A DNA stretch of 64,000 nucleotides from an uncultured Gemmatimonadaceae bacterium (lineage in GTDB: Bacteria; Gemmatimonadota; Gemmatimonadetes; Gemmatimonadales; Gemmatimonadaceae), in contig CAWHHI010000012.1 of the NCBI GenBank assembly GCA_963829055.1, positions 224,001 through 288,000 of the forward strand, written 5' to 3'. The notes under the pieces were generated by a model that worked only from the letters and a program-made list of their open reading frames with translations, had not been told where the DNA came from and made no database searches. The translations under genes and the position numbers were made by a program. Shown piece by piece: positions 493-64,000 of the stretch. How positions within the stretch are numbered: the stretch's first letter is position 1; every line of letters begins with the position of its first letter.

Positions 493-503
493 CGTCATCG
501 TTA

Positions 504-614
504 GGGACATCGGGACCGGGGACCGGGGACTCGGCGAAAGCACGGTCGTGCCGCGCGCCGCAGCGCTGCGAGCGGCTTTCGCCGAGTCCCCAGTCCCCAA
601 TCCCCAGTCCCCAG
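504..614. repeat. Palindromic element with heptamer (GGGGACY / RTCCCCA) tandem arms
   Basis: Perfect 17-bp inverted repeat GGGGACTCGGCGAAAGC (525-541) / GCTTTCGCCGAGTCCCC (575-591); inner palindrome CGCAGCGCTGCG (559-570); flanked by GGGACCG repeats and (A/G)TCCCCA repeats. Confidence 0.85.
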
Positions 615-1372
615 CCCACCCTGGCACCATCGCCGCGCGCGATTTCTCGTTCTGGTACGGCGCGAAACAGGCCCTCTTCGATGTCAACCTGACGATTCCG
701 TCGCGCGCCGTGACCGCGCTCATCGGGCCGTCGGGCTGCGGCAAGTCCACGTTCCTGCGCTCCATCAATCGTCTCAACGCGCTGATTCCCGGAGCGAAGC
801 ACTCCGGAGCCATCGAGCTCGATGGCGAAGACGTGTACGGGCAGGCCATGACCGCCGTCGCCCTTCGACAGCGCGTGGGAATGGTATTCCAACGCTGGAA
901 TCCGTTTCCCAAATCCATCTACGACAACGTCGCGTACGGCCCCCGCATCAACGGCGGTGCCTCACGCGCCGAGATCGATGAGATCGTCGAGCAGTCGTTG
1001 CGGCGCGCCGCGTTATGGGACGAAGTGAAGGACCGGCTCCGCCAGAGCGCGTTAGGTCTCTCGGGCGGGCAGCAGCAACGACTGTGCATCGCGCGAGCGC
1101 TCGCGAATGAGCCGGAGGTGCTGCTGCTCGACGAGCCCGCGAGTGCGCTCGATCCGATCGCGACGCAGAAGATCGAGGAGCTGCTCTACGAGCTCCGTTC
1201 CGAGTTGACCATTGTCATCGTGACCCACAACATGCAGCAGGCGGCTCGCGTCTCGGACCACACCGCCTTCTTCTACCTCGGACGGCTCGTCGAAGTGAAC
1301 GAGACCGGACGGCTGTTCACGACCCCGCGCGAGGAGCGCACCGAGGCGTACATCACTGGGAGATTCGGATGA
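548..1372 (+). CDS. pstB: Phosphate ABC transporter ATP-binding protein, second copy (start uncertain)
   Basis: GPSGCGKST Walker [21 protein letters not shown]-terminal YITGRFG. Confidence 0.95.
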
Positions 1373-2088
1373 GTCCCGAGGCCGCTGGCTTTCGTCATTT
1401 CCACGATCAGCTGCGAACGCTCAAGGAGCGCCTGCTCGACATGTCCGCCCGCGCCGAGGAGCTGGTCGATCTCGCGGTCGAGTCGCTGCTCACCCGCGAC
1501 AAAGACAAGGCGGACACCGTCATCAGTGGCGATCACGAGCTCGACATGATGGAGCTGGAGTGCGAGAACCTCGCCGTGTCGCTGCTCGCGCTCCAGCAGC
1601 CAATGGGGCGTGATCTCCGCTTCATCATCAGCGCCATCAAGATCACGAGCGACCTCGAGCGCGTTGGAGACCACGCGGTGAACATTGCCCAGTCCGCGCT
1701 GCGTCTCATCGCGCTGCACGTCGAGATTACGCCGACGCCTGAGATCGAGGATATGGCGCGGCGGTCTCGCGGCATGCTCGCCCAGGCGCTCGACGCGTTC
1801 ATCCGTGCTGACGGTGCCGTCGGTCGCGAGGTGTGCCGAGCGGATGACGCCGTCGATGCCCTGCACGACTCGGTCTTCCGTATCCTGCTGACTCACATGA
1901 TGGCCGACGCCCGCACGATCACCCCGTCGCTGGAGTTGTTGCTCGTGAGCCGCAACCTCGAGCGCGTCGCCGACCTCGCCACGAACATCGGCGAAGATGC
2001 GGTTTTCCTAGCCGAGGGGAAGCAGATCAAGCATCATTATGAGGAGCAGCAGCGCGACCGCGCTGTCATCCCTCAACCGACTGGTTAG
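1369..2088 (+). CDS. phoU: Phosphate signalling protein PhoU
   Basis: [23 protein letters not shown] and [13 protein letters not shown] motifs; ATGA overlap with pstB. Confidence 0.95.
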
Positions 2089-3726
2089 GTGGCCCTCCCA
2101 GCGCTCTCTCGATCGTCCGAAACTTCCACACGATCTCCGCGAGCCGAGCAGGACGCGCGGCTCGCAGCAATCGACATCGGCTCGAATTCCATCCGGCAGA
2201 TCGTTGCCGATGTGTCGCCGACCGGCTCCATCCGCGTCGTCGACGAGATGAAGGCCGCGCCGCGACTCGGTGCCGGCCTCCGCGAGACGGGGCTCCTCAG
2301 TGAGACGTCGATGCGTAAGGCGCTCGAGGCGCTGACGCGCATGGCGACGCTCGCTCGGCAATTGGGCGCGACGCGTATCGAGGCCGTCGCGACCAGTGCC
2401 GTGCGCGACGCCGCCAATGGGCTCACGTTCCTCGAGCTCGTTCGCTCCGAGACCGGGCTCAAGGTGAAGGTGCTTCGTGGCGAGGAGGAAGCACGCCTCT
2501 CGTTCCGGAGCGCGCTCGCCCACTTCGAGATGGGCGTCGGACGCGCGGTCGTCATGGACATCGGCGGTGGCTCGTTGGAGCTCGCCCTGAGCGCCGATGG
2601 ACTGCTCGAGCGCCTGATCTCACTCCCATTCGGGGCGATTCGCCTGACGGAGGAGTTCCTGGCGCCTGGCACGCGGCGCAAGGGAGTACGAAAGCTGCGC
2701 GCCGCGATCCGCGACGATATCCGGAGGACGCTGCCCGTCCGTGATTGGCGCGGCGCACAGGTCATCGGCTCTGGTGGGACATTCACGAACCTCGCCGGCA
2801 TCTACCTCAACCGGCAAGGCGTGCAGACCGCGCGCACCACCCACGGGACGCGGCTGCCTCGCGTGGAGCTCGAGCACATTCTCGACATGCTGCAGGACAT
2901 GTCGCCGGAGCAGCGCACCGCGGTCCCCGGCCTGAACCCGGGCCGCGCGGACATCATCGTCGCGGGATTCGCCGTTGCGGCGGAAGTCCTCGCTCGGCTC
3001 GAGTCGCGCGAGGTGATCGTATCCGCCTACGGCATCCGCGAGGGGCTGCTGCTCGAGACCGCGCGCGTCGTGCCCACGTTCTCCGACCGCGGCGAAGCGC
3101 GCGAGCGCTCGGTCCGGGAGTTCGCCGAGCGTTGCCACTACGAAGAACCGCACGCGCGACACGTCCAGCGATTGTCGCTGCAACTGTTCGACGCCATCGG
3201 ACCGCGCATCGGCCTGACGGCAGTTGACCGACAGATCCTCGCCGACGCGGCGTTGCTCCACGACGTCGGCTACCACATCAACTACGAGAAGCATCACAAG
3301 CACTCGTACCACCTGATCATCCACGCCGACATGTTAGGCATGTCGCCGGAGGAACAGGTCGCGATCGCAAACGTGGCGCGCTACCACCGCGGCGCGGCGC
3401 CGAAGCGAAAGCATCCGAACTTCGGCATGCTCGATCGTGGATTGCGCCGGCGCATTCGCAAGCTCGCGGCGCTTCTTCGCGTCGCGGATGGATTCGACCG
3501 GGGTCACATCGGGGCTGTCGATCGCGTGAAGGTGCGCTGGCTCGATCGCGCGCTGCGCATCACACCGAGCGCCAATCGACGAGCGCAGTCACTGCGTCTC
3601 GATCTCTGGGGCGCGAGCCGCAAGGCAGAACTGCTCGCGAGGATCGTGCAGATCCCCGTCGAGATCGTGGCGCCCGACGGCACGGTGATCTCGCAAGAGC
3701 AGACGGACGAGCAGGCCGCCGACTGA
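2089..3726 (+). CDS. ppx: Exopolyphosphatase Ppx/GppA with C-terminal HD domain
   Basis: AAIDIGSNS, ATSAVRDA, DIGGGSLE, YGIREG and LLHDVG motifs. Confidence 0.93.
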   Translation: MALPALSRSSETSTRSPRAEQDARLAAIDIGSNSIRQIVADVSPTGSIRVVDEMKAAPRLGAGLRETGLLSETSMRKALEALTRMATLARQLGATRIEAVATSAVRDAANGLTFLELVRSETGLKVKVLRGEEEARLSFRSALAHFEMGVGRAVVMDIGGGSLELALSADGLLERLISLPFGAIRLTEEFLAPGTRRKGVRKLRAAIRDDIRRTLPVRDWRGAQVIGSGGTFTNLAGIYLNRQGVQTARTTHGTRLPRVELEHILDMLQDMSPEQRTAVPGLNPGRADIIVAGFAVAAEVLARLESREVIVSAYGIREGLLLETARVVPTFSDRGEARERSVREFAERCHYEEPHARHVQRLSLQLFDAIGPRIGLTAVDRQILADAALLHDVGYHINYEKHHKHSYHLIIHADMLGMSPEEQVAIANVARYHRGAAPKRKHPNFGMLDRGLRRRIRKLAALLRVADGFDRGHIGAVDRVKVRWLDRALRITPSANRRAQSLRLDLWGASRKAELLARIVQIPVEIVAPDGTVISQEQTDEQAAD

Positions 3727-3777
3727 GTTTTCGCCGCGCCTAACGTCGTGCGGCTCGATCGGCGTCGTTGAGCAGCG

Positions 3778-5931
3778 TCAGGCGCTGTTAGGCACCCGCT
3801 CGGTTCGTTGGACCGTCTCGGGCGTGCGCGATGCGGCGCGCTCAGGTACCTCGAGCCCCCATGGGTCTCGCAGGAGCACGCGATGCGTTCCCCGCTCCAC
3901 GCCGTCGCCAGGTGTGCGCTGCTCGTAACCGCCGTCAGGCCTGAGCTCCCACGCCTGACGGTTGTCGGCAAGACACGTTTCCAGCACGCCGCGCAGACGC
4001 GGGTGCAGTGCCTTGTCGACCACGGGCGCCACCGCTTCCACCCGGCGATCGAGGTTGCGCGGCATCCAGTCCGCTGAGCCGATGAAGTACTCGTCATCGC
4101 CGCTGTTGGCGAAGTAGAACACGCGCGAATGCTCGAGAAAACGACCGACGATGCTGATCACGCGAATGCGTTCGCTCACATCGGGCACACCGGGACGCAG
4201 GCAGCAGATGCCGCGAACGATGAGGTCGATCTCCACTCCCGCCTGCGACGCCTCGTACAGCGCCGCGATGATTCCCGGATCGACGAGTGCGTTCATCTTG
4301 GCGATGATTCGCGCCGGTCGCCCGTCGCGCGCCGCATTCGCTTCGTTGCCGATCAGTTCCAGAAAGCGATCGCGCATGTTGCCAGGCGCGATCAGCAGCT
4401 TGCGATACACCCGTTGCCGCGAGAAGCCCGTCAACGAGTTGAAGAGGTCACTCAGGTCGGCGCCGATCGACGGACTCGCCGTGAACAGACCGATGTCCGT
4501 GTACGTCCGCGCCGTCTTCGTGTTGTAGTTGCCAGTACCGATGTGGACGTAGCGGCGAATGCCATCCGCCTCGCGGCGAACGACCAGCGCGACCTTCGAG
4601 TGCGTCTTGAGCCCAGGGAGCCCGTAGGCGACGTGCACGCCGAAGTTTTCCAGGGTCCGCGCCCACGTGATGTTGTTCGCCTCGTCGAAGCGCGCTTGCA
4701 GCTCGACGAGTACCGCGACCTGCTTGCCGCGTTGCGCAGCCTCCGTGAGCGCGCGCACGATCGCCGTGTCGCCGGACGTGCGGTACAGCGTGAGCTTGAT
4801 CGCGAGCACGTGGTCGTCACGCGCTGCCGCCTCGAGAAACTGCTCCACCGTCGCGGCGAAGGACTCGAATGGATGGTGCACGAGCAGGTCATGTTCGCGA
4901 ATCACATCGAAGATCGATCGCGTCGTGTCTCGCACGGCGAGCGGCACCGTCGGCACGAGCATCGGGTCGCGGAGCTCCGGAATGTCGAGCATCGCGATCG
5001 CCATGAGGTCGCCCAGCTCCAGCAACGGGCCACCGTCATAGACATCGCGTTCCGCGAGCACGATCCCGGGCAACGCTTCGCTCTCGCGCAGCTCCTCGAG
5101 GATGAGCGCGCGTATGTGTGCCGGCATTCCGTCCTGCACTTCGAGCCGCACCACTTCGCCGAACCGACGCTGGAACACCTGCTCCTCGATCATCGCCAGC
5201 AGGTCCTCCGGCTCGTCGACAGTCTTGTCCAGCTCGAGGTCCGAGTAGCGCGTGACCTTGAACGCCCACCAACCGAGGACCTGCATGCCGGGGAACAACG
5301 ACCCGAGGTTCGCGCCGATGACCTCCTCGAGTGATACGAACTGATTCCCGCGGCCGAACGGCACCCAGCGCGGAAGACTCTTCGGCACCTTCACACGCGC
5401 GAAGTGGTCGACGCCTCGATCCGGATCGCGGATCTCGACCGCGAGCGACAACGAGAGATTCGAGACGTATGGGAACGGATGCCCCGGGTCGACCGCGAGG
5501 GGCGTGAGCACCGGAAACACCTCGGACTCGAAGAACACGTCGACGGTATTCCACTCGCTCGACGTTAGGTCGTTCATGTGCACGAGTCGGATGCCCTTCT
5601 CATCCAGCGCTGGCAACACGCGTTGATGGAGGCACTCGTGCGCGCGCGCGAGAAGCTCGCGAACCCGGCGCTCGATCGCGTCCAGCTGCGCCTGCGCGCT
5701 CAATCCGTCTGCGGGAACCGCCGTCACCCCAGCCGCGACCTGTCGTCGCAGACCGGCAACGCGCACCATGTAGAACTCGTCGAGATTCGTGCTGAAGATC
5801 GAAAGGAACTTCAGCCGCTCCAGCAGCGGGTTGCGCTCGTCGAACGCCTCGTGGAGTACGCGCGCATTGAACTCGAGCCAACTGAGCTCGCGGTTGAAGA
5901 ACAGCGCTGGTGGAAGGGAATCGTGAGGCAT
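3778..5931 (-). CDS. ppk1: Polyphosphate kinase 1
   Basis: FNRELSWLEFNARVL, NLDEFYMVRV, KTHSK, GRFLEHSR, SADWMPRNLDRRVE; start set at ATG 5931. Confidence 0.96.
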   Translation of the reverse strand: MPHDSLPPALFFNRELSWLEFNARVLHEAFDERNPLLERLKFLSIFSTNLDEFYMVRVAGLRRQVAAGVTAVPADGLSAQAQLDAIERRVRELLARAHECLHQRVLPALDEKGIRLVHMNDLTSSEWNTVDVFFESEVFPVLTPLAVDPGHPFPYVSNLSLSLAVEIRDPDRGVDHFARVKVPKSLPRWVPFGRGNQFVSLEEVIGANLGSLFPGMQVLGWWAFKVTRYSDLELDKTVDEPEDLLAMIEEQVFQRRFGEVVRLEVQDGMPAHIRALILEELRESEALPGIVLAERDVYDGGPLLELGDLMAIAMLDIPELRDPMLVPTVPLAVRDTTRSIFDVIREHDLLVHHPFESFAATVEQFLEAAARDDHVLAIKLTLYRTSGDTAIVRALTEAAQRGKQVAVLVELQARFDEANNITWARTLENFGVHVAYGLPGLKTHSKVALVVRREADGIRRYVHIGTGNYNTKTARTYTDIGLFTASPSIGADLSDLFNSLTGFSRQRVYRKLLIAPGNMRDRFLELIGNEANAARDGRPARIIAKMNALVDPGIIAALYEASQAGVEIDLIVRGICCLRPGVPDVSERIRVISIVGRFLEHSRVFYFANSGDDEYFIGSADWMPRNLDRRVEAVAPVVDKALHPRLRGVLETCLADNRQAWELRPDGGYEQRTPGDGVERGTHRVLLRDPWGLEVPERAASRTPETVQRTERVPNSA

Positions 5932-6062: not shown

Positions 6063-7115
6063 TCACAGCCGGATAAAATGCGAGAGCACAAAATACGACA
6101 ACGCAGCGATGAGCGCCGCAGCGGGGATCGTCATGATCCATGCCCAGACGATGCGACCCGCGACGCCCCAGCGAACGGCGGACAGCCCGTTCGTCGCGCC
6201 AACCCCGACGATAGCCCCCGTAATGGTGTGCGTGGTGCTGACCGGAATTCCGAGTTTCGTCGCCACGAGAATGGCGAACGCGCCGCCCGTCTCCGCGCAG
6301 AAGCCACCAACCGGTCGCAGCTTCGTGATCCGGTTGCCCATCGTGTGCACGATTCGCCAGCCGCCCAGGAGTGTGCCCAGCGCGATACAGCTGTACGCGC
6401 CGATCTCCACCCAGTACGGCACCGCACCCTCCGGGTTAGGCAGGTAGAAGAGGCCCAGCAATCCGGTCTGGCCGCGAAACAATTCCTGCGTGTGCGACGC
6501 GCCGAGCAGCCCGACGATGATGCCCATCGTCTTCTGCGCGTCGTTGGCGCCGTGCGAGAACGAGAAGAGGCCCGAGCTCACGAGCTGCGCCACACGGAAC
6601 ACTCTGTCCACACGCGCCGGCGCCGCGCGCTGAAAGATCCAGTACACCGCGACCATCAGCACGAAGCCCGCAGCAAGCCCGATCAGCGGCGACAGGGCGA
6701 TGAACTCGAGCGTCTTGATCCACTTGTCGCCCCACAGAATCGCGCTCCACCCGGCCTTCGTCACCGCCGCGCCAGCGTAGCCGCCGATCAGTGCGTGCGA
6801 GGAGCTCGACGGAAGTCCGTACGCCCAGGTGATGAGGTTCCACGCGATCGCACCGAGTAGCGCCGCGAGAATGACGGTCGGGTCGACGATCGCCTGATCG
6901 ATCATCCCGCTCTGCACCGTCTTGGCGACCGCGGTGCCAACGACGAACGCCGCCGAGAAGTTGAAGAACGCGGCCCAGACGACGGCGGCGAACGGATTCA
7001 GCACGCGCGTCCCGACGATTGTGGCGATCGAGTTCGCCGAATCGTGAAAGCCGTTGATGAAGTCGAACGCGAACCCGATCAGGACGATGACGACGACGTA
7101 CGCCATCGGACTCAC
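6063..7115 (-). CDS. pit: Inorganic phosphate transporter, PiT family
   Basis: GFHDSANSIAT, GLPSSSSHALIGG, HGANDAQK, PVSTTH; GTG start overlaps upstream TGA. Confidence 0.93.
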   Translation of the reverse strand: MSPMAYVVVIVLIGFAFDFINGFHDSANSIATIVGTRVLNPFAAVVWAAFFNFSAAFVVGTAVAKTVQSGMIDQAIVDPTVILAALLGAIAWNLITWAYGLPSSSSHALIGGYAGAAVTKAGWSAILWGDKWIKTLEFIALSPLIGLAAGFVLMVAVYWIFQRAAPARVDRVFRVAQLVSSGLFSFSHGANDAQKTMGIIVGLLGASHTQELFRGQTGLLGLFYLPNPEGAVPYWVEIGAYSCIALGTLLGGWRIVHTMGNRITKLRPVGGFCAETGGAFAILVATKLGIPVSTTHTITGAIVGVGATNGLSAVRWGVAGRIVWAWIMTIPAAALIAALSYFVLSHFIRL

Positions 7116-8321: not shown

Positions 8322-9272
8322 TCAGTACGCGGAGCCGCTGCCCGTCTTCGCGTCGGCCGTCGCGCACGCCCCTGACGCACACCGTTCGGTGTGCATCTGC
8401 GGTGACGCGAGGAGCTCACGCATGGGGAGCGGCCCGCGCCCGAGGCATTGCGCCATCGCCACACCACTCGACGTCCCGATGCGTGTGGCGCCGTTCGCTA
8501 TCATGCGCAACGCCGTTGCACAGTCACGAACGCCGCCCGACGCCTTGACGCCTAACGCGTCACCCACCACGAGTCGCATGAGCGCCACCGCCTCGGCGGT
8601 CGCCCCGCCGGCAGCGTGGAAACCCGTGCTCGTCTTCACATAGTTCGCCCCCACCTCGCGGGCGAGCGCGCTGGCTTTGATGATCTCCACGGGCGTGAGG
8701 TGCGCGGACTCGATGATCACCTTGACGAGCACTCCACCAGCCGCACGCACAACGGCGGCAATGTCATCGGCGACGTGGTTCCAGTCACCACTCTTGATGT
8801 GGCCGACCGTGGCTACCATGTCGATTTCCGTGGCGCCTTGGCGGATGGCCAGCGATGCCTCCGCAGCCTTGATCTCGGACTGGTTCGCGCCTAACGGGAA
8901 ACCGACCACGGTCGCGAGCGCGACGCGGCTGCCCTTGAGCCGCTCGGCGCAGCGCGGTACCCACACCGGGTTGACGCACACGGCCGCGAACTCGTACTCC
9001 ATCGCCTCGGCGCAGAGTTGGTCGATCTCCGCCAGCGTCGTCTCCGCCTTGAGCATCGTGTGATCGATGAACTCGGCGATCCGCGCATTGTCGCGGACGT
9101 AACGCACACCCGGGGACGCAGTCGCAACGGCGGAAGGGGCCGGCGCGGAGACCGCGTGCGGCAGCGCGAACGAAGGTGCCGACTCGCGACGGACGGCCAC
9201 CTCATCCGCTCGCGCCAACTCTCGCGCAACCTTCGCCGCCAGCGCATCGAGATCGATGCCGCGCTGGCTCAT
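8322..9272 (-). CDS. deoC: Deoxyribose-phosphate aldolase with N-terminal extension (putative encapsulation peptide) and Cys-containing C-tail
   Basis: IDHTMLK, VVGFPLG, GATEIDMV, KVIIE, VKTSTG (Schiff-base Lys), VKASGG, RIGTSSG, terminal Tyr. Confidence 0.93.
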   Translation of the reverse strand: MSQRGIDLDALAAKVARELARADEVAVRRESAPSFALPHAVSAPAPSAVATASPGVRYVRDNARIAEFIDHTMLKAETTLAEIDQLCAEAMEYEFAAVCVNPVWVPRCAERLKGSRVALATVVGFPLGANQSEIKAAEASLAIRQGATEIDMVATVGHIKSGDWNHVADDIAAVVRAAGGVLVKVIIESAHLTPVEIIKASALAREVGANYVKTSTGFHAAGGATAEAVALMRLVVGDALGVKASGGVRDCATALRMIANGATRIGTSSGVAMAQCLGRGPLPMRELLASPQMHTERCASGACATADAKTGSGSAY

Positions 9273-14841: not shown

Positions 14842-15115
14842 TCGTCAGACAGCGTAACCGGTCGTTAGGCATCCCGCGCGCCGACGCCTGCGCCGGTTGA
14901 GGCAGGCCGATGGGTTAGATGGTCGAGCAGGTTGTGATGAGCTCGCACGTCGGGCCAATGTTCAGATCGCAATCGCACGCCTCGTGACCCTGCGAGCCCG
15001 GATGCATCAGAACGCCTCCGGCCGAGTCCAGCCCGAGTGACACGCCCTGACGTGGACGCGGTGCGGACGCCATCTTACTGAGCGCGTTACGAAGGCAAGT
15101 TGGAAGGAGGTGCAC

Positions 15116-15348: not shown

Positions 15349-15727
15349 GCGTCTCGGTACGCGGGCCGGACCTCGATCACCAGCTGCTCGTTAGGTACGC
15401 CGCTGCACAGCGCGTCGATCTTGCTCCTGCGCCGGCTTGCATTGCACGAGGCGCCAGTGTGTGTCGCAGCCTGGCGACAATCGTCGGGCGGCCGCAGCAC
15501 GACCGCGGCGTAACATCCGCGGTTGCGTGCGAATCCGCGGGCATAACGAGCGCGCACACAGTCCCCCGCCGTTCGGAACGCCGCGTGCCTTATCGCAGGG
15601 CGTCGCCGCGATCGGGCCGAATCATGAACGAACTGTCATGAACCCGTAACACTTTCCCGGGTTACAGACCCGCCCGGAATAGCTATCCTGCCTGCTGAGT
15701 GAGTGACCCCTAATATTGGAGATCCCA

Positions 15728-25208: not shown

Positions 25209-25312
25209 CTGATCGCATCAGCGGCGATCCTCGGCTGCGACGAGTCCGCGTTAGGTGATGTCGTAGCGGACCAGCCGCGCAGTGGTCACGGCGCCGTCGC
25301 CGGCGCCGTTCG

Positions 25313-40981: not shown

Positions 40982-40990
40982 CTTCTGCGC

Positions 40991-44416: not shown

Positions 44417-45016
44417 TCGGCCCGAACCGATACTCGACCCCGAGCTGCGCCATGAGCCGCACCATCAGGCCTAACGCGAGCCCCATCACGGCGAAATAGT
44501 CGCCGTCCACGCGCTCGACGATCGTCGCGCCGAATCCCTGAATGCCGTACGCGCCCGCCTTGTCCATCGGTTCGCGCGTCGCGATGTAGCGCGTGATGTC
44601 ATCGTCGGTCAGGCGTCGGAACGTGACATCCACCGACTCGACGCCCGAAACGAGTCGACCGCCCCGTGCCACGGCGACTGCGGTGAGCACCACATGCGTG
44701 CGCCCGGACAACCGACGCAGCATCACCGCGGCGTCGCGCTCGTCACGCGGCTTTCCGAGAATGTCGCCGTCGACGACGACGATCGTGTCCGCACCGATGA
44801 CCACCGCATCGTGTTCGAGCTCCGCGACCGCGGTCGTTTTCTCGCGCGCGAGACGTTCGGCGTGCGCGCCGAGGTATTTCGCCCGCGTAAGCGCGTCTCG
44901 TCGATGTCGGCAGCGCGTACGGCATGTCGGACACCAATCAGCGTCAGGAGCTCGCGACGCCTTGGCGAGGATGACGCGAGGACGACTCGTGGACCGCTCA
45001 GCGGTTGCTCAGTCAT
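44358..45016 (-). CDS. maf: Maf family nucleotide pyrophosphatase (apparent frameshift near 44885)
   Basis: [34 protein letters not shown]. Confidence 0.88.
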
Positions 45017-47207: not shown

Positions 47208-47262
47208 TCCCGTGGCGCCGTCCGCCTAACGGTGGACGGGCGCCATGCCGCGCGATATCGCG

Positions 47263-49089
<1,827 letters not shown>

Positions 49090-52416: not shown

Positions 52417-53887
52417 GTGAGTGATCCTCTCGGCCTCCTCCCAATTGCTGTTGCCGCCGGCGGCGGACACGTCGACGGTTTCGAAGCGCAGCAACTCGTC
52501 GCGGCAGGGCTTACCCTGCTCCAGCGATGCGCGCCACTCGTGCGCGCGTTGCAGCGTCGCCGCTCCGCGATTTTACTGCCGACGTCGCCCGCGTTCGTGA
52601 CGGCGCTCGCGGCTTCCGAAGGGCGTGGTGCGGTTCTCATCAACCCGCTCGCGTCCGCTCCCGAGGTGGCGTATCAGATCGCCGACGCGAGCGTCGGCGC
52701 GGTGTTCACGACCGCGGATCTCGCGCGCCGCGTACCCGATCACGTTCCCCGTGTGCTGCTCGACGACGCGCCGCGAACGGCGCGCTTCGTCGCGGACGCT
52801 GGCTCTCGCGACGTGGATCTCGGGTCGCATCACGGCCTGACGTTGGAAGGCGATGCGGACGCGGTCGGCGCGAAGGAGGAGGCGGCGATCGTCTACACGT
52901 CCGCGTTGGCCGGTACGTTGTTAGGCGCGTCACTGACGCATCACAACTTGCTCTCGAACGCGCGTGCCACCATGACCGCGGCGGCAATGACACGCGACAG
53001 CCACGCTCTCGCCGTCCTGCCCTTCGCTCACTTGTTCGGCCTCGTCGTATCGGGAGCGGCGCCGCTGTTGGCGGGCGGCCGCGTGACGACGATGGCCCGC
53101 TTCAACCCCGGACGCGCGATCGAGCTGCTGGAGAGCGAGTCGATCTCGGAGCTGGTCGCGGTGCCGTCCGTTTTCGCGGCTATCGTCGCACTCCTCGACC
53201 GACGGAACGCACCACTACGAGGCGAGCGCCTCCGGCTCTGCATCTGCGGCGGCGCGCCGCTCGACGTCGCACTCCAGGACCGGTGGTATGACGTGACGGG
53301 GACCGAGCTGCGACAGGGGTACGGTCTCACAGAAGCTGGGCCGGTCTGCCTGTTCAACCGTGTCGATCAGCCGAACCGGCGCGGCACGTTAGGCGTTCCC
53401 TTCCCCGGCGTCCGCGTTTCCGTCCGGGCGGATGCCGGCGGCGCGGAGCTACCGCCGGATGTCGAAGGTGAGATCTGCATCGCGGGACCTAACGTGTTCG
53501 CCGGCTACGTGAACGCGGCCGCCCACCCCGTCAGGCCGGACGATCCCTGGAGCGCGGGGTTGCGACCGCGATGGTGAGTGGCTCCGCACCGGGGACCGCG
53601 GTGTTCGGAACGGCGATGGCACCGTTTCGTTTCGCGGCGTGCTCAAGCCGATGTTCACGCGAAACGGGTTCAACGTCTACCCGCGGGAGCTGGAACGCGT
53701 GGTCGGGGCGATGCCGGGCGTGCGCAGCGTGCGCGTGATCCCAATTCCCGACCCGCTTCGCGAGAACGACATCACCCTCGAGATCGAGGGCGACGTCACG
53801 GAGGCGGACGTGAAGGCATGGTGTGACGTACAGCTCGCCGCGTACAAGCGACCGTCCGCCATCACCGTTCTCGCCAGCATCGCCTAA
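52417..53887 (+). CDS. AMP-binding (acyl-CoA synthetase-like) protein (apparent frameshift near 53570)
   Basis: LPFAHLFG, GGAP, GYGLTE, GEICIAGPNVFAGY, WLRTGD, GFNVYPRELE, AAYKRP. Confidence 0.8.
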
Positions 53888-53905
53888 CGCCGGACGACCT
53901 TCGGC

Positions 53906-56308: not shown

Positions 56309-56316
56309 ACGTCTCT

Positions 56317-57288: not shown

Positions 57289-58573
57289 AGGCACTGATTG
57301 TCGGCGGGGGCGGTCGTGAGCACGCCCTCGCCTGGAAGCTGAAGCGGGACGACCCCACAATCGAGCTCCTCGCTGCGCCGGGCAACCCGGGCATCGCGGA
57401 GCTCGCGCGTTGTGTGGCGGTATCAGCGACGGACGTCACGCGGATTGTGGACCTCGCGGCGCAGGAACGCGTCGACCTCGTGGTCGTGGGGCCGGAAGCA
57501 CCATTAGCCGCCGGGCTCGCGGACGCGCTGTGCGGGCGCGGCCTTCCGGTGTTCGGGCCGTCGGCTGCGGCGGCTCGTATCGAGACCTCGAAGCGGTTCG
57601 CGAAAGAGGTCATGGCCGACGCAGGCGTTCCCACGGCGCGCGCGTCGCATCACTCGGAAGTCGACTCGGCGCGTCGCGCCGTCGCCGACTTCGGTGCACC
57701 GGTGGTCATCAAGGCGACGGGCCTGGCGTCGGGAAAGGGCGTCGTCGTCTGTGAGTCGGTCGACGCAGGCCTACGCCGCGGTCGACCGCATGCTGCGGGA
57801 CGGCGCGTTAGGCGATGCCGGCAACGAAATCCTCGTCGAGGAGTTCATGGAGGGCGAGGAGCTGTCGCTCTTCGCGCTGACGGACGGCGAGCGGTACCTG
57901 ACGATGATCCCCGTGCAGGACCACAAGCGGTTGTTCGCCGGAGACGCCGGTCCAAATACCGGGGGGATGGGCGCCTACGCGCCCGTCGCCGTCGGCACCG
58001 ATGCGCTCGTTAGGCAGGCGGGCGCGCGGATCATCGAACCGACGCTCGCGGCGCTGCGCGAGCGTGGCGCGTCGTTCAGTGGTCTGCTGTACGCGGGACT
58101 CATGCTGACCGACGAGGGCCCGAAGGTCGTCGAGTTCAACTGCCGCTTCGGCGATCCCGAGACACAGGCGATTCTGCCCACTCATGCGCAGCTCGCTATT
58201 GGACGCGTTCGTCGCGGTCGCGTCAGGCGACGGGCTTTCGGGAATGGACCCGTTCGACTGGAGTGAGCAGTTCGCGGTCACGACCGTTCTCGCCGCGCCC
58301 GGATATCCTGATGCCCCGGCTACCGGCGACCGCATCACGCTCCCGGAGCAGCACGGGGACGTCATCGTATTCCATGCCGGCACGAGCCGCGACCGCGACG
58401 GCGCGCTGGTGACGGCCGGCGGACGCGTGCTCGCCGCGACAGGCGTGGCGGCTTCGTTCGACGTCGCACAGCGCGCAAGCGTGGAGTACGCGGAGGCGGT
58501 GCAGTTCACCGGCAAGCAGTACCGTGCCGACATCGGCTGGCGAGAGTCAGCCCGACGTGCCCGAGCTACCTGA
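57285..58573 (+). CDS. purD: Phosphoribosylamine-glycine ligase (apparent frameshifts near 57765 and 58180)
   Basis: GGGGREHAL, APGNPG, VGPEAPL, QDHKR, NTGGMGAY, EFNCRFGDPE, FHAGT, YRADIG. Confidence 0.93.
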
Positions 58574-60851: not shown

Positions 60852-61346
60852 CTAGGCGAGTAGCGGTATCAGCTCTGCCTTCGCCCGCCCGCCCGCGATC
60901 GTGAGTCGAGCAACGCTCGGCGTGAGATCGAACCGCCGGGGACCCGCAGCACCAGGATTGAGCGCGAGCCGGCCGCCTGCACCGGCGATCAGCGGTCGAT
61001 GGGTGTGCCCAAATACTACGACGTCAGCACTGTAACGCTCCAGTAGCTTCACCGGCGTCGGAGACCCGACCTCGTGTCCGTGGCTCACGTGAATCGAAAC
61101 GCCACCTATGGTCAGCTCGATCGACTGTGAGAGGCGGGGGTCACCGGGGGCATCCGTATTTCCATAGACCGCGCGAATCGGCGCGATGAGCGCCAACTCG
61201 TCGAGCACGTCGTCGCCGCCAACGTCGCCGGCGTGAAGGATCATCTCGACGCCCGCGAGCGCAGTATGAACGTCGGCTCTCACGAGACCGTGCGTGTCGG
61301 AGATGATGCCAATGACGCGCGGCTCCTCCGCACCCGAATCGCTCAT
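60852..61346 (-). CDS. YfcE/MJ0936 family metallophosphoesterase
   Basis: SDTHG, HAGD, GNTD, HGH, GHTH, NPG. Confidence 0.88.
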   Translation of the reverse strand: MSDSGAEEPRVIGIISDTHGLVRADVHTALAGVEMILHAGDVGGDDVLDELALIAPIRAVYGNTDAPGDPRLSQSIELTIGGVSIHVSHGHEVGSPTPVKLLERYSADVVVFGHTHRPLIAGAGGRLALNPGAAGPRRFDLTPSVARLTIAGGRAKAELIPLLA

Positions 61347-61954
61347 TCGCTGGACTCGCTCCCCCACCGCGGGACCAGCGCCTGTTCGACGCCGAGTTGA
61401 TCGAGCACGCGACCGACGATGAAATCGACCAGGTCTCCGATCGTGCGCGGACGGTGATAGAACCCCGGTGACGCCGGAAGAATGACAGCGCCGGCCCGCG
61501 TCAACGTCATCATGTTCTCGAGGTGGATGGCGCTGTACGGCGACTCGCGCGGCACGAGAATGAGTCGGCGCCGTTCCTTGAGCGTCACGTCGGCGGCACG
61601 CTCCACGAGCGATCGTGACGCACCGACCGCGATCGCCGACATGGTGCCCATCGAACACGGGCAGATGACCATCCCGGCCGACAATGCCGACCCGGACGCC
61701 GGCGCTGCGCCACGATCGCGATCATCGTACACGCGGACGACCGTATCCCAGCCGGCGGCCCCTACACGTTCACGCAGCGCCGCGACCGATTCGATGTCCA
61801 TCTCGGTCTTGAGCAGACGCACGCCGTGATCGGACACGATCAATGACACGCGTTGCTGGCGCTCCACCAGCGCCTCGATCAGTCGCACCGCGTACGGCGC
61901 ACCCGAGGCACCGGTGACCGCCACAATGATCGGGCGATCGGCAGCAGCCGTCAT
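61343..61954 (-). CDS. ubiX: Flavin prenyltransferase
   Basis: TGASGA, ASGS, PCSMGT, RAADVTLKERR, PRESP, PGFYHRP. Confidence 0.93.
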   Translation of the reverse strand: MTAAADRPIIVAVTGASGAPYAVRLIEALVERQQRVSLIVSDHGVRLLKTEMDIESVAALRERVGAAGWDTVVRVYDDRDRGAAPASGSALSAGMVICPCSMGTMSAIAVGASRSLVERAADVTLKERRRLILVPRESPYSAIHLENMMTLTRAGAVILPASPGFYHRPRTIGDLVDFIVGRVLDQLGVEQALVPRWGSESSE

Positions 61955-62850
61955 CGCACCAGGCGTTCGGCGAGCACGAAGCCGAAAAACGTTAGGCTGA
62001 TGACGCCGTTCATGGTGAAGAAGGCGGCGTCGAGCCGCGACAGGTCATCCCCCCGGACGAGTGAGTGCTCGTAGAGGAGGAGGGCGGCGGCGACGGCCAC
62101 GCCGGCCGCGTACAACCAACCGACCGGCACCGCAGTCCCCACAGCCGCGAGCGCGACGATCGTGAGCACGTGCAACCCGCGCGCGATGGCGAGCGCGCCG
62201 CGCCGGCCGAACACGACCGGCACGGAATGTAGACGCTCGGCGCGATCGAACTCTTCATCTTGCAGCGCGTACAGGATATCGAAGCCGGCAGTCCACGACG
62301 AGACGCCAAGTGCCAGGGCAATGAGCATCCACCACGGCGTGCTCCATCCCCCCGCGACGGCGAGATAGCCACCGACCGGAGCAATCGCGAGACCGATACC
62401 CAGCACGATGTGTGACCAGTGCGTGAACCGCTTGGTGTAGCTGTACCACAACACCCAGCCTAACGCGATTGGACTGAGCACCGCACACAGCGGGTTGAGG
62501 CGCCACGCGGCGAACACGAAGACGATGCTCGCGAGGACGACGGCGAGCGTCGCCTCACGGACGCCAAGCAGCCCACTCGGAAGCTCGCGCCGCGCCGTGC
62601 GCGGATTCTTCGCGTCGATCTGTCGGTCCACGATGCGGTTGAAACCCATCGCGGCGAACCGGGCGGCGGTGAACGCGATGACGATCCACGCGACCTCGGC
62701 GACCGTGACGCGTCGCGTGAAGCTCGCCAGCGTCGCGCCCACGAGCGCGAATGGCAGTGCGAACACCGTGTGCGGCAGCTTCACGAAGTTCACGTATCGC
62801 ACGAGCCGTGAGCCGCCGTCGAACGTCTGTCCTTCCCGCGGTCGCATCAT
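61951..62850 (-). CDS. UbiA family prenyltransferase (MqnP-like)
   Basis: [49 protein letters not shown]. Confidence 0.85.
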
Positions 62851-64000
62851 TCCCCTCGCCCTCCGCCACCAAACCGTGAAACGACATCGCTGAGTGAGCT
62901 CGCCGAACCCTCGAGCGCATGCGCCGTCTCGCGCAGTTGCTCGGTGAGCGACCGTTGATGATGCATTGCGCGCGTGGCCTCGTCGGCGGCTCCGGACGAC
63001 GCGTCCGCCGCATCGGCCACCAGCGCCGACGCCTCATTCACCTGCCTAACGAGCGCATCCTGCCGTTCCGACGCTCGCAGTACCGCGTCGGCGAGCGCCA
63101 ACGTGCGGCGCGCGTCCTGCTCGATCGATTGAAAGACGCCGACCGCTTCGCGCATGACCTGCTCGCCGCGCTTCACCGCCGATTCCATGCGCGCCACCCG
63201 TCCCGACGCATCCTCGATGCGGTCGGTCATCTCGCGCACCAGTACCTCGATGCGCCCCACCGACCCGCCACTCTGCATCGCCAGCTTCCCAACCTCTTCT
63301 GCCACCACCGCGAAGCCTCGCCCGGCTTCGCCGGCGCGCGCTGCCTCGATCGACGCGTTGAGCGCCAGCAAATTGGTTTGTCGGCCGATGTCGCCCACGA
63401 CCGTCGTCACGTCGCCGATCGCGCCTGACGACGTGCGCAACGCATCCATACGCTCGACGAGATCGCGGGCCAGCTCGGCGAGTTCGGTGACAGCGGTCAT
63501 CGCGGAGGCGGCACGGCCAACGCCGAGCTGCGCGCTGGCCTCCACTTTCGCGGAGATCTCGCGCGACTCGCGCGCGGACGCATGCGTGGCGGCGGCGGCC
63601 TCATCGAGTTGCGTCGCGGCGAGGCGAATCTGTCGCGCGGCATCCATGCTGCGCGCGACGCCGCCCGTCACGCCAGTGAGTTGTGTCGTGACCCGGCCTG
63701 CACCGTCGGCGACAGTCGCGCCAATGCGCGCGACATCCGACGACGCGCCCAGCACCTGGGTAGCAGTTTTCTTCGTTTCGCCAATGAGCCCACCGACTTC
63801 GCGCAACGCGGCAGCGATGTCTGCGCGGCCGGCAACGTCGTCATCGCCCTGGAGGAGAACGGCCCAGTCGCCGCGTCGCACCGCGCCCGCGAGCTGCTCG
63901 AGCAGCGCCAGCGGCCGCGACATGATCGCGTTCAGCCTAACGACGAACCACGCGATGGCGGCGAAGGACAATATCCACGCAATCACGAGCTCGATCGGTC
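62847..64000 (-). CDS. Methyl-accepting chemotaxis protein (5' end beyond window)
   Basis: [30 protein letters not shown]. Confidence 0.9.

What the first reader, a model, noticed from the sequence alone, without database searches (positions are those of the whole stretch)
499..63941. Dispersed non-palindromic motif (C)GTTAGG(Y) that overrides codon usage: candidate undescribed DNA-level signal
Seen: 47 copies by hand count. GTTAGG on + (29): 500, 1051, 2084, 3333, 3787, 5564, 6435, 13666, 14864, 15390, 16617, 17502, 23701, 25250, 25913, 30752, 31637, 31703, 32656, 33559, 33579, 42019, 42669, 50417, 52920, 53388, 57807, 58009, 61991. CCTAAC on + (18): 3739, 8551, 8890, 16654, 21621, 25545, 27062, 34544, 43287, 44470, 47225, 47975, 51334, 53488, 53883, 62459, 63045, 63936. 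About 38 extend to CGTTAGG; a mononucleotide model at about 67% GC predicts roughly 7. I saw only about 5 GTTAG(A/C/T) near-variants. Inside genes it appears in several frames and both orientations: TTA-GGN (Leu-Gly in lon, deoC, glmS, degP), CTA-ACN (tig, ppk1, glmM), CCT-AAC, and GTT-AGG (purD, MCP). It therefore imposes TTA, CTA and AGG codons that are otherwise scarce here. Established: frame-independent enrichment is how Neisseria DUS, Pasteurellaceae USS, Chi and cyanobacterial HIP1 behave, and GTTAGGY also fits the integron core GTTRRRY. Inference: a protein-recognised site for DNA uptake, recombination/repair, nucleoid organisation or DNA modification. The weak strand bias argues against Chi or KOPS. 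I do not recognise a described function for it.
Basis: partly seen in the sequence, partly recalled or inferred. Interest (0 to 1): 0.88.

Follow-up and report, generated by a model that had tools for sequence, protein, structure and literature searches.

The report
Hyper-abundant integron-core DNA word, Gemmatimonadaceae
This soil bacterium and about a third of the genera in its family carry the eight-letter DNA word CGTTAGGC thousands of times, written into ordinary genes against their own codon habits, much like the self-tags that some bacteria use to take up their own kind's DNA; the word is also the recombination core of the family's integron gene cassettes, and what reads it is unknown.

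Summary
GTTAGG occurs 47 times in the window at the listed positions, against 5.7 expected.

Genome-wide, the full word is CGTTAGGC. It has 5004 copies in 7.78 Mb against about 20-260 expected, and it is the top 8-mer. Its properties:
- It lies on both strands and shows no replication polarity.
- It is 15-33 times over a synonymous-codon shuffle.
- It holds 68% of all TTA codons.
- It fills 20-46% of the places where the protein sequence allows it.
- It is spaced more evenly than chance, and one copy suppresses others within about 300-400 bp.
- It is kept about twice as well as its flanks between species.

It is enriched in 27 of 77 genera of Gemmatimonadaceae, with at least 7 gains or losses on a tree, and is almost confined to that family.

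The same 8-mer ends the attC sites of the order's integrons. IntI scores over its cut-off in 88 of 151 family genomes, but its presence does not track the genome-wide word.

Best reading (0.45): a DUS/USS-like signal spread by biased DNA uptake or transfer. A comEA-pilB-pilT-pilC operon is present.

Tested and not supported: Chi/KOPS, Vsr/Dcm repair, four methylase families, a conserved MmeI-like enzyme, ComEA and IntI. I found no description in print.

The parts
500..505 (+). motif copy, intergenic (CGTTAGGG)
1051..1056 (+). motif copy in pstB, sense, GCG TTA GGT (A-L-G)
2084..2089 (+). motif copy at phoU end/intergenic; kept in G002 and G005
3333..3338 (+). motif copy in ppx, sense, ATG TTA GGC; relatives have CTC/CTG
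3739..3744 (-). motif copy, intergenic ppx/ppk1 (convergent 3' ends)
3787..3792 (+). motif copy in ppk1, antisense, read CCT AAC (P-N)
5564..5569 (+). motif copy in ppk1, antisense, read CTA ACG (L-T)
6435..6440 (+). motif copy in pitA, antisense CCT AAC; kept in G001, G002, G005
8551..8556 (-). motif copy in deoC-like gene, sense GCG TTA GGC; G000-specific
8890..8895 (-). motif copy in deoC-like gene, sense CCG TTA GGC; kept in all 4 relatives
13666..13671 (+). motif copy in degP, sense ACG TTA GGC; relatives have CTC/CTT
14864..14869 (+). motif copy, intergenic after degP
15390..15395 (+). motif copy, intergenic
16617..16622 (+). motif copy in herA-like gene, antisense CCT AAC; kept in all 4 relatives
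16654..16659 (-). motif copy in herA-like gene, sense ACG TTA GGC; kept in 3 of 4 relatives
17502..17507 (+). motif copy in herA-like gene, antisense CCT AAC; kept in all 4
21621..21626 (-). motif copy near split TonB-receptor genes
23701..23706 (+). motif copy, intergenic
25250..25255 (+). motif copy, intergenic
25545..25550 (-). motif copy in 155-aa ORF, sense GGG TTA GGC
25913..25918 (+). motif copy in tig, sense GGG TTA GGT; kept in all 4
27062..27067 (-). motif copy in tig, antisense CTA ACG; kept in all 4
30752..30757 (+). motif copy in lon, sense TCG TTA GGC; kept in all 4 and in L001
31637..31642 (+). motif copy in lon, sense ACG TTA GGC; kept in all 4 and in L001
31703..31708 (+). motif copy in lon, sense GCG TTA GGC; G000-specific (relatives CTC/CTG/TTG)
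32656..32661 (+). motif copy in engB, sense GCG TTA GGT; kept in 3 of 4
33559..33564 (+). motif copy, intergenic
33579..33584 (+). motif copy, intergenic, 20 bp from the previous one (rare close pair)
34544..34549 (-). motif copy in 324-aa ORF, antisense CTA ACA
42019..42024 (+). motif copy in FHA-GAF-cyclase gene, sense GCG TTA GGT; relatives CTC
42669..42674 (+). motif copy, intergenic
43287..43292 (-). motif copy in 107-aa ORF, antisense CTA ACG
44470..44475 (-). motif copy in maf, sense GCG TTA GGC
47225..47230 (-). motif copy in polysaccharide-synthesis gene, antisense CCT AAC
47975..47980 (-). motif copy in glmS, sense ACG TTA GGC; kept in G001, G002
50417..50422 (+). motif copy upstream of glmM call (AGTTAGGC)
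51334..51339 (-). motif copy in MCP gene, antisense CTA ACG
52920..52925 (+). motif copy in AMP-ligase gene, sense TTG TTA GGC; relatives CTC
53388..53393 (+). motif copy in AMP-ligase gene, sense ACG TTA GGC; relatives CTC
53488..53493 (-). motif copy in AMP-ligase gene, antisense CCT AAC; kept in 3 of 3
53883..53888 (-). motif copy, intergenic
57807..57812 (+). motif copy in purD fragment, sense GCG TTA GGC
58009..58014 (+). motif copy in purD fragment, sense GTT AGG (V-R)
61991..61996 (+). motif copy in ubiA, antisense CTA ACG
62459..62464 (-). motif copy in ubiA, sense GCG TTA GGC
63045..63050 (-). motif copy in the last gene of the window (runs off the end)
63936..63941 (-). motif copy in the last gene of the window

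Best explanation
CGTTAGGC (core GTTAGG, flanks C/T and C/T/G) is a lineage-wide 'self' word of many Gemmatimonadaceae. It has been driven to thousands of copies by a process that favours DNA segments carrying at least one copy.

The best-supported process is biased DNA uptake or transfer followed by homologous recombination, that is, molecular drive as for the DUS of Neisseriaceae and the USS of Pasteurellaceae.

Inferred steps:
1. A surface or periplasmic component of the type IV pilus/ComEA uptake machine prefers double-stranded DNA bearing the word.
2. Alleles that carry it are imported and recombined more often than alleles that lack it.
3. The word therefore spreads into every place where the protein tolerates it, mostly by synonymous CTC-to-TTA, Pro CCT or CTA changes, and above all into 3' intergenic DNA.
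4. A second copy within a few hundred bases adds little, which yields even spacing.

Shown here: the statistics, the codon override, the spacing, the maintenance between species, the patchy clade-wise distribution, and the presence of an uptake-type gene set.

Inferred only: that uptake is the biased step, and what the receptor is.
For: - Excess. 5004 copies against 102-258 expected (Markov orders 1-3). It is the top 8-mer under each model. With the word masked from the background, 19-57 are expected.
- No polarity. Strands 2547/2457. GC skew rho 0.06, p 0.24; 616/569 in positive-skew windows and 734/732 in negative-skew windows.
- Frames. All four stop-free frames are used, and 1769 of 5004 copies lie outside called genes.
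- Codon null. Codon shuffles give 53.5 and 102.9 against 1748 and 1502 observed.
- Occupancy of synonymous opportunities: [ATSP]LG 22%, [RGSC]LT 20%, xPN[AGVDE] 46%, xVR[LPHQR] 10%. TTA is 19.7% of Leu codons before Gly when the previous base is G, and 0.1-0.5% otherwise.
- Density per kb: convergent spacers 1.07, tandem 0.86, genes 0.56, divergent (promoter) spacers 0.47.
- Spacing. Gaps of 50 bp or less are 1.3% against 4.5% expected. The hazard rises from 0.26 per kb below 50 bp to a plateau of 1.0-1.2 per kb from about 400 bp. This is an interference that a site-autonomous mutational bias would not give.
- Maintenance and turnover. The core is conserved between congeners at 48-61% of aligned sites, against 25-30% of phase-matched flanking hexamers, in 7 of 8 comparisons. 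Of 23 site clusters aligned in five species, 7 are shared by all, 6 are G000-only, 5 are limited to a three-species group, and 5 show other patterns.
- Distribution. 27 of 77 family genera by my reading. The word is almost absent outside the family. It is clade-wise, but the tree needs at least 7 changes.
- Machinery. A comEA-pilB-pilT-pilC operon. ComEC in 5 of 5 genomes, an HHH_3 ComEA-type domain in 5 of 5, secretin in 5 of 5 and PilT in 151 of 151.
- Precedent. The three known hyper-abundant short words are all now tied to transformation. HIP1 is reported to enhance transformation and to correlate with type IV pilus and ComEA genes (PMC13756078, abstract and discussion read).
Against: - No uptake experiment exists, and no competence is reported for the phylum. 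The search lists no paper joining Gemmatimonadota with uptake sequences or competence.
- The uptake genes are just as present in word-poor genomes, so they do not explain who has the word.
- No receptor was identified. ComEA diverges fast everywhere, with no jump at the rich/poor boundary: 71-73% identity rich-rich against 48-54% rich-poor, while PilB is 96% against 85-88%.
- In G000 itself pilB and pilC read in several frames. These are either assembly indels or broken genes.
- Unlike Neisseria DUS, there are no inverted pairs forming terminators.
- No variant 'dialect' was seen in the one word-poor relative sampled (80 kb of G008).
- The exact identity with the integron core site is unexplained by plain uptake drive.
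- Selection for an in-place function would give the same conservation and spacing.
Confidence: 0.45

Rival explanations
1. In-place function under selection. The word is the binding site of an abundant chromosomal protein (nucleoid organisation, condensin-type loading, or a 'self' mark read by a defence or repair system). Each copy is kept because it works where it sits, as Xu et al. argued for HIP1.
For: - Sites are conserved about twice as well as phase-matched flanks.
- Spacing is even, with a 300-400 bp exclusion range.
- Density is similar on all 20 contigs, 0.48-0.80 per kb.
- HIP1 was interpreted this way from conservation and periodicity (PMC5861425, abstract read).
Against: - Half of the sites turn over between congeners.
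- Sister clades of one genus, about 86% identical in PilB, live with 4-66 copies against 3244-4141. The function would therefore have to be dispensable.
- Density varies 25-fold among carriers.
- No candidate binding protein was identified.
Confidence: 0.2
2. Sequence-directed repair or gene-conversion bias inside the cell, without uptake. A nicking or mismatch-correcting enzyme converts near-variants to the word, as VSP repair does and as was once proposed for HIP1.
For: - The enrichment is far stronger than weak per-site selection usually gives.
- Most gains are synonymous two-step changes, CTC to TTA. The non-word orthologue is GCTCGG in 21 of the roughly 80 non-word orthologous cores tallied.
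Against: - One-letter variants of the core are not depleted. Observed over expected is 0.65-3.2 for all but one of 18.
- Vsr was not found in the word-rich G066 and G254 (96% and 98% complete) and was present only in the word-poor G343.
- C5 methylase was not found in the same two rich genomes.
- A site-autonomous conversion does not predict suppression of neighbours within 300-400 bp.
Confidence: 0.12
3. Methylation-linked word of the HIP1 type. The word is the target of a conserved methyltransferase, and methylated copies mark kin DNA for transformation, restriction evasion or defence.
For: - A large (about 1050-1130 aa) MmeI-like type IIG methylase with Eco57I, MmeI_Mtase and MmeI_hel domains, followed in G066 by an SNF2 helicase.
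- It is conserved in 144 of 151 family genomes, including 108 of 108 high-quality ones. That is unusual for a restriction enzyme.
- Recalled, not tested: enzymes of this family read short asymmetric words with an adenine next to the 3' end. The complement of the core fits that form.
Against: - The enzyme is intact in rich and poor genomes alike.
- No alignment column separates 24 rich from 18 poor genomes. The best difference in frequency is 0.49, and R-R, P-P and R-P identities are alike in every 100-residue block.
- The beta-class N6/N4 methylase was found in 57 of 151 genomes and was not found in G000, G001, G004, G014, G066 or G166.
- The Dam class occurs in only 2 of 5 rich genomes.
- C5 methylase was found in neither of the 2 rich genomes searched.
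Confidence: 0.1
4. Direct integron or tyrosine-recombinase link. The copies are sites for IntI or a Xer/IntI relative. They could be landing pads of the attG kind, decoys, or sites of a domesticated recombinase.
For: - The 8-mer equals the 3' end of the attC repeats in cassette arrays of the same order. In L081, 23 copies lie on one strand within 20 kb; L082 and L083 are similar. The same holds for G000's own integron at C20:200-208 kb.
- GTTRRRY is the core shared by attI and attC, with TAG usual at positions 3-5 (PMC8876359, passages read).
- IntI is over its cut-off in 88 of 151 family genomes.
Against: - IntI presence does not track the word. It is present in many poor genomes, and was not found at E 1e-40 in the rich G004, G010 and G065, while G014 shows only a short fragment.
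- Dispersed copies have no conserved flanks beyond 8-10 bp.
- There is no excess of inverted partners at attC distances: 43 -+ pairs against 27-39 in the other orientation classes at 78-120 bp.
- Thousands of recombination-competent sites inside essential genes should be selected against.
Confidence: 0.1
5. A polar chromosome word of the Chi or KOPS type, or remnants of a mobile element (MITE, REP or decayed attC).
For: It is an 8-letter asymmetric, over-represented word, as those are.
Against: - There is no strand skew with GC skew.
- The enrichment, 20- to 250-fold, is far above what I recall for Chi.
- Flanks are not conserved.
- 65% of copies lie inside housekeeping genes in four frames.
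Confidence: 0.03

Closest known systems
DNA uptake sequences: DUS of Neisseriaceae and USS of Pasteurellaceae (DUES)
   Same: - A short asymmetric word at about one copy per 0.8-1.6 kb.
- Both strands are used equally, and copies lie inside genes in several frames at the cost of codon usage.
- It is richer in 3' intergenic DNA.
- Spacing is more even than chance.
- It is shared by related genera.
- Type IV pilus, ComEA and ComEC genes are present.

   Different: - 8 letters, with no extended flanking consensus.
- No terminator-forming inverted pairs.
- One identical word across at least 27 genera, with on/off clades instead of dialects.
- A different phylum (Gemmatimonadota, soil).
- No uptake experiment and no known receptor.
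- The word coincides with the integron core.
HIP1 (GCGATCGC) of cyanobacteria
   Same: - An octamer 15- to 300-fold over-represented.
- It is conserved between genomes and patchy across a large clade.
- Its function has long been unknown and is now linked to transformation.
(PMC5861425 abstract; PMC13756078 abstract and discussion.)
   Different: - HIP1 is a palindrome with two known cognate methylases.
- Here the word is asymmetric, and no co-varying methylase was found.
Integron core site GTTRRRY (R' box of attC, R box of attI)
   Same: - Letter-for-letter match.
- CGTTAGGC is the actual 3' end of attC repeats in arrays of this order and of this genome.
- The consensus and the usual TAG come from PMC8876359.
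   Different: - Dispersed copies lack the R''-L''...L'-R' hairpin context.
- They are not in arrays and sit inside housekeeping genes.
- They do not depend on intI being present.
Chi and KOPS/SRS polar octamers
   Same: Asymmetric, over-represented 8-letter words read on double-stranded DNA by translocating machines.
   Different: - Those are co-oriented with replication, but this word is not.
- Its excess is much larger.

Membership tests
DNA uptake sequence (DUS/USS type) | Short specific word hugely over-represented genome-wide | tested here: met
   5004 copies against 19-258 expected. It is the top 8-mer.
DNA uptake sequence (DUS/USS type) | Both orientations equally, no replication or transcription polarity | tested here: met
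   Strands 2547/2457. GC skew rho 0.06. Sense 1748 against antisense 1502.
DNA uptake sequence (DUS/USS type) | More even spacing than random | tested here: met
   The hazard is 0.26 per kb below 50 bp against 1.0-1.2 per kb from 400 bp.
DNA uptake sequence (DUS/USS type) | DNA uptake machinery encoded (type IV pilus, ComEA, ComEC) | tested here: met
   A comEA-pilB-pilT-pilC operon, ComEC, secretin and PilT. They are also present in word-poor genomes. DprA was not searched. In G000, pilB and pilC are frameshifted.
DNA uptake sequence (DUS/USS type) | Rarity in recently acquired DNA | tested here: inconclusive
   Three stretches of 31-48 kb are free of the word. They lie at contig ends, have 66-73% GC and carry fragmented housekeeping genes, so they look mis-assembled rather than like islands. 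Smaller gaps hold ordinary genes.
DNA uptake sequence (DUS/USS type) | Competent cells prefer DNA carrying the word; a specific receptor exists | not testable with these tools
   This needs an uptake or transformation assay. No receptor candidate emerged.
HIP1-type methylase-linked word | Palindromic word | tested here: not met
   CGTTAGGC is not its own reverse complement.
HIP1-type methylase-linked word | Cognate methyltransferase(s) co-occurring with the word | tested here: not met
   The C5, beta and Dam classes were not found in several rich genomes. The one universal MmeI-like enzyme is equally present in poor genomes, with no discriminating residue. The methylation state itself was not tested.
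Integron attC site | R' core GTTRRRY at the 3' end | tested here: met
   GTTAGGC fits. It is identical to attC ends in L081-L083 and at C20 of G000.
Integron attC site | Imperfect inverted repeat R''-L''...L'-R' of 50-150 nt, in same-strand arrays beside intI | tested here: not met
   There is no flank conservation and no excess of inverted partners at 50-130 bp. Only the C20:200-208 kb locus is a real array.
Chi / KOPS polar words | Strand skew following replication direction | tested here: not met
   616/569 and 734/732 in windows of opposite GC skew.
VSP (Vsr/Dcm) repair-driven word | Vsr endonuclease with C5 methylase; depletion of the T-variant | tested here: not met
   Vsr and C5 methylase were not found in rich G066 and G254. 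Transition variants are not depleted.
MITE / REP element | Conserved sequence beyond the core, intergenic location | tested here: not met
   Flanks are at background composition beyond +/-2. 65% of copies lie in genes.

The most novel reading that the evidence does not exclude
The word that these bacteria use to recognise DNA worth importing is the integron recombination core itself. An uptake or transfer system in Gemmatimonadaceae prefers DNA bearing the attC/attI R-box. That would couple natural transformation to the capture of gene cassettes, in a family where 58% of sampled genomes encode IntI. As a by-product it would have driven the R-box into thousands of chromosomal positions.

The abundant attC copies could have been the seed for the specificity. 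That would explain why the same 8-mer appears in at least 7 separate transitions on the tree.
Probability: 0.15. Interest if true: 0.92.

Novelty: new variant of a known kind. Interest (0 to 1): 0.78.

Why it matters
If the reading holds, this is a further lineage, after Neisseriaceae, Pasteurellaceae and (recently argued) cyanobacteria, with a genome-wide DNA self-tag. It sits in one of the most abundant yet least tractable soil phyla.

Practical consequences:
- Adding CGTTAGGC to donor DNA is a cheap, testable way to try to make Gemmatimonadaceae transformable.
- The word is a sharp marker for binning and for spotting foreign or chimeric contigs. It exposed three suspect stretches in this assembly.

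Conceptual consequences:
One genus holds species with 3244-4141 copies and species with 4-66.
- The identity with the integron core raises a new question about links between transformation and cassette capture. A 2025 paper shows that transformation feeds cassettes to chromosomal integrons (PMC12614218, passages read).

Tried and rejected
- Chi/KOPS: no GC-skew polarity.
- Inverted-pair terminators: no excess in any orientation class at short range.
- MITE or attC remnants: no flank conservation.
- 'Dialects' in word-poor kin: 80 kb of G008 shows no hyper-abundant 8-mer. Only one poor genome was sampled.
- Word-free stretches as genomic islands: the three largest carry fragmented housekeeping genes at contig ends and look chimeric. 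Seven smaller gaps carry ordinary genes, plus one plasmid-type RPA gene. No conclusion on horizontal transfer was drawn.
- Vsr and C5 methylase: not found in the rich genomes of genus g56.
- ComEC, ComEA domain, secretin, PilT: present everywhere, so not discriminating.
- ComEA as the specificity determinant: fast-evolving everywhere, with no jump between rich and poor.
- Beta-class N6/N4 methylase: if anything commoner in poor genomes.
- Dam class: in 2 of 5 rich genomes.
- MmeI-like type IIG enzyme: it looked promising, being in 5 of 5 rich genomes from 4 genera. It proved to be a family-wide core gene, in 144 of 151 genomes, with no residue separating 24 rich from 18 poor.
- IntI presence: unrelated to the word load.
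- Literature: the word itself returns only primers. No paper joins Gemmatimonadota with uptake sequences or competence.
- Not used: complex prediction, structure prediction, and the read-laying tools.

Full report
OBSERVATION

GTTAGG occurs 47 times in the window (29 on +, 18 on -) at every listed coordinate. Dinucleotide-preserving shuffles give 5.73 +/- 2.51, and 0 of 100 reach 47. 38 copies extend to CGTTAGG, and only 5 GTTAG are followed by another letter. The window is a run of housekeeping genes: pstB, phoU, ppx, ppk1, dnaK, degP, tig, clpP, clpX, lon, engB, glmS, glmM, an MCP gene, purD, fpg and ubiA. Two details differ. The MCP copy is read CTA-ACG rather than GTT-AGG, and the 'glmM' copy lies outside my gene call.

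THE WORD GENOME-WIDE

The window lies in a 7.78-Mb, 20-contig, 66.6% GC assembly. Its best-matching named relatives are Gemmatimonadaceae metagenome bins (Lon 87% identical).

- GTTAGG occurs 7103 times. Position -1 is C in 90% of copies and position +6 is C in 79% (T in 12%). Beyond that the flanks are at background composition.
- The unit is therefore CGTTAGGC. It has 5004 copies against 131, 102 and 258 expected under Markov orders 1-3. It is the most over-represented 8-mer under each model.
- With the word masked from the background, the expectation falls to 19-57.
- All 20 contigs carry it at 0.48-0.80 copies per kb.
- One-letter variants of the inner six letters sit near expectation, at 0.65-3.2 times. 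The exception is CGTTATGC, with 583 copies (11 times expectation); its logo adds CG upstream. Variants at the two outer letters are themselves enriched 9- to 65-fold.

IT IS A DNA-LEVEL SIGNAL

I used my own crude gene caller: 6875 genes covering 74.6% of the genome. The assembly has many frameshifted genes, so these numbers are approximate.

- Frames. The word contains a stop codon in one frame of each strand. All four remaining frames are used: 1306 and 437 sense, 593 and 899 antisense. 1769 copies lie outside called genes.
- Codon null. Twenty synonymous-codon shuffles give 53.5 +/- 6.3 sense and 102.9 +/- 7.6 antisense copies, against 1748 and 1502 observed.
- Rare codons. 68% of all TTA, 20% of CTA, 15% of CCT and 9% of AGG codons lie inside the word.
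- Occupancy. Where the protein allows the word synonymously, the 8-mer is present in 22% of [ATSP]-L-G, 20% of [RGSC]-L-T, 46% of x-P-N-[AGVDE] and 10% of x-V-R-[LPHQR] sites.
- Context. TTA is 19.7% of Leu codons before Gly when the preceding base is G, and 0.1-0.5% otherwise.
- Polarity. The orientation of copies is unrelated to GC skew: rho 0.06, p 0.24, over 381 windows of 20 kb; 616/569 and 734/732 in windows of opposite skew. GC skew itself does track gene orientation (rho 0.40).
- Intergenic density. The order per kb is convergent 1.07, tandem 0.86, genes 0.56, divergent 0.47.

SPACING

Copies avoid each other. Gaps of 50 bp or less make up 1.3% of 7083 gaps, against 4.5% for an exponential distribution. 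The chance of meeting the next copy rises from 0.26 per kb below 50 bp to a plateau of 1.0-1.2 per kb from about 400 bp. There is no excess of inverted pairs. A bias acting on each site alone would not produce this interference. A process in which one copy per few-hundred-base segment suffices would.

MAINTENANCE AND TURNOVER

I aligned the window to its syntenic regions in four congeners, which are about 80% identical at the DNA level.

- The six-letter core is intact at 48-61% of aligned sites. Phase-matched flanking hexamers are intact at 25-30%. This holds in 7 of 8 comparisons.
- The exception is G000 to G004 (29% against 27%). G004 has half the word density.
- Of 23 site clusters aligned in all five species, 7 are shared by all, 6 are G000-only, 5 are limited to G001+G002+G005, 3 are in all but G004, and 2 show other patterns.
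- Where a species lacks the word, the orthologous core is most often GCTCGG (21 of about 80). The protein (Leu-Gly) is kept and the difference is CTC against TTA.

The word is thus both actively kept and still being gained or lost.

DISTRIBUTION

- Family sample. In 401 genomes of the family, counts are bimodal (the tally includes unpublished genomes G013, G051, G052, G150, G264, G282 and G309). By my reading, 27 of 77 genera have at least one genome with at least twice the reversed-word control. Counts reach 7821 in 6.1 Mb (G205). The rest carry 0-60 copies, fewer than the control.
- Split genus. In genus g56, six species have 3244-4141 copies and eight have 4-66. The rich species form a tight subclade (PilB 96% identical among them, 85-88% to the poor ones).
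- Phylum sample. In 301 genomes, enrichment outside the family appears only in one genus of a sister family, g110, at up to 1061 copies against 271 control. One genome of a third family, G030, has 345 against 147.
- Intermediate densities. A 60-kb sample of G014 has one core per 560 bp with the same flanks. A 100-kb sample of G010 has 13 dispersed copies with the same flanks.
- Tree. I built a maximum-likelihood tree of PilB+PilT+PilC (1391 columns, 60 genomes chosen by me: 26 rich, 9 intermediate, 25 poor). One clade supported at 99% has 17 rows from 11 genera, all rich or intermediate. The other rich lineages nest among poor ones. At least 7 changes are needed between rich and poor, or 11 if intermediates count as carriers. 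The label is clustered (0 of 500 shuffles as low). The tree rests on pilus genes, which could themselves be transferred.

THE INTEGRON COINCIDENCE

In word-poor relatives most copies sit in same-strand runs every 400-1300 bp, at the end of a conserved repeat of about 30 nt. L081 has 23 such copies on one strand in 20 kb; L082 and L083 are similar. These are integron cassette arrays, and the 8-mer is the R' core of attC plus the preceding C.

The 7-bp core GTTRRRY is shared by attI and attC. Strand exchange falls between its first and second bases, and TAG is usual at positions 3-5 (PMC8876359, passages read).

G000 has its own intI (C20:208041-208958, 265.7 bits, just over the 265-bit cut-off). 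Beside it lies a small array whose attC-like sites end in the word. One has an inverse core 83 bp upstream.

IntI is remarkably common in the family. It is over the cut-off in 88 of 151 genomes. For comparison, a review gives 20% for complete integrons in Gammaproteobacteria (PMC8618304, passage read).

IntI presence does not follow the genome-wide word. Many poor genomes have it. It was not found in the rich G004, G010 and G065, and G014 shows only a fragment. The dispersed copies lack any attC context.

A chance match of the family's hyper-abundant 8-mer to the exact attC end used in the same order is very unlikely, but I could not establish the link.

- Uptake genes exist. A conserved operon comEA-pilB-pilT-pilC is present in rich and poor genomes alike.
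- ComEC is in 5 of 5 genomes, the ComEA-type domain in 5 of 5, secretin in 5 of 5 and PilT in 151 of 151. None of these discriminates.
- ComEA evolves fast, but evenly across the rich/poor boundary.
- Vsr and C5 methylase were not found in two rich genomes of 96% and 98% completeness.
- The beta-class methylase is in 57 of 151 genomes and was not found in G000, G001, G004, G014, G066 or G166. The Dam class is in 2 of 5 rich genomes.
- An MmeI-like type IIG enzyme with an adjacent SNF2 helicase was present in 5 of 5 rich genomes. It proved to be a family-wide core gene, in 144 of 151 genomes. It is intact in 24 rich, 3 intermediate and 18 poor genomes. No residue or region separates the groups.

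READING

The statistics match the known uptake-signal words point by point. The third known hyper-abundant word, HIP1, has recently been tied to transformation and to type IV pilus and ComEA genes (PMC13756078, abstract and discussion read).

I therefore rank biased uptake or transfer with recombination first (0.45). Behind it come an in-place binding function (0.20), an internal repair bias (0.12), a methylation-linked word (0.10), a direct recombinase role (0.10), and Chi/KOPS or mobile-element remnants (0.03).

The boldest reading still open is that the uptake signal is the integron core itself. Transformation is known to feed cassettes to chromosomal integrons (PMC12614218, passages read).

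NOVELTY

- Full-text searches for the word returned only primers.
- Searches joining Gemmatimonadota with uptake sequences or competence found nothing.
- A search on uptake sequences, HIP1 and molecular drive found no description of this word.
- Integrons in the phylum are known.
- Earlier notes of this scan on other genomes report the same word and the same comparison. They are not independent evidence. I read them only after forming my own reading.

LIMITS

- The gene calls are my own.
- G000 has many frameshifted genes and probably three chimeric stretches.
- The genomes on the tree were chosen by me from those with a full-length PilT hit.
- Genus-level tallies were read by eye.
- Only about a dozen candidate gene families were tested.

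Noticed in passing
G000 C6:6854-55038, C6:591809-623330, C11:0-44055 (outside the window): Three stretches of 31-48 kb almost free of the word (no core copy inside any; in the case of C11, one copy at 7377 splits the stretch in two). All lie at contig ends, have GC of 66-73%, and carry housekeeping genes (aroC, trp operon, ftsK, def/fmt), many in fragments. They are probably chimeric joins or mis-binned DNA in this assembly.
   Followed up: partly
window 34550-42018: The longest word-free gap in the window (7.5 kb). It holds a PilB/MshE-type ATPase fused to a receiver domain (35005-37227), a DUF5686-like protein, a chorismate-binding enzyme and the start of an FHA-GAF-cyclase gene.
   Followed up: no
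G000 genome-wide; e.g. k-mers GTCATTCCGAGCG / AGTCGAGGAAT: A second, unrelated repeat family (686 copies of an 11-mer seed, short conserved core). It tops the max-order Markov lists for 8- to 10-mers and is probably a REP-like element.
   Followed up: partly
G000 genome-wide: CGTTATGC, with CG often upstream, is a second dispersed variant. It has 583 copies, 11 times expectation, and differs from the main word by one letter of the core.
   Followed up: partly
G000 C8:73509-76755; L222:7040-12501 (G066): A large MmeI-like type IIG methylase (Eco57I, MmeI_Mtase and MmeI_hel domains), followed in G066 by an SNF2 helicase with DrmD-, BrxH- and DpdE-like hits. The methylase is a vertically conserved core gene, found in 144 of 151 family genomes. 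That is odd for a restriction-modification enzyme, and its target is unknown.
   Followed up: partly
G000 C12:489440-494800; L152:4974-10066 (G066): A conserved operon comEA-pilB-pilT-pilC. ComEA is physically linked to the pilus motor genes, which suggests a competence pilus across the family. In G000, pilB and pilC read in several frames.
   Followed up: partly
family-wide; G000 C20:200430-208958: The integron integrase is over its curated cut-off in 88 of 151 Gemmatimonadaceae genomes. G000 carries intI with a small same-strand cassette array on its 3' side.
   Followed up: partly
window 57751-58266, 19942-23144, 44361-44804 and elsewhere: Several genes are truncated or split (purD, a TonB-dependent receptor, maf, uvrC). 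The same is seen for pilB, pilC and the MmeI-like gene elsewhere in the genome. The assembly seems to carry many indel errors.
   Followed up: no
C5 and beta-class N6/N4 DNA methylases appear to be rarer in word-rich than in word-poor genomes. This is a trend read by eye and was not tested on the tree.
   Followed up: no
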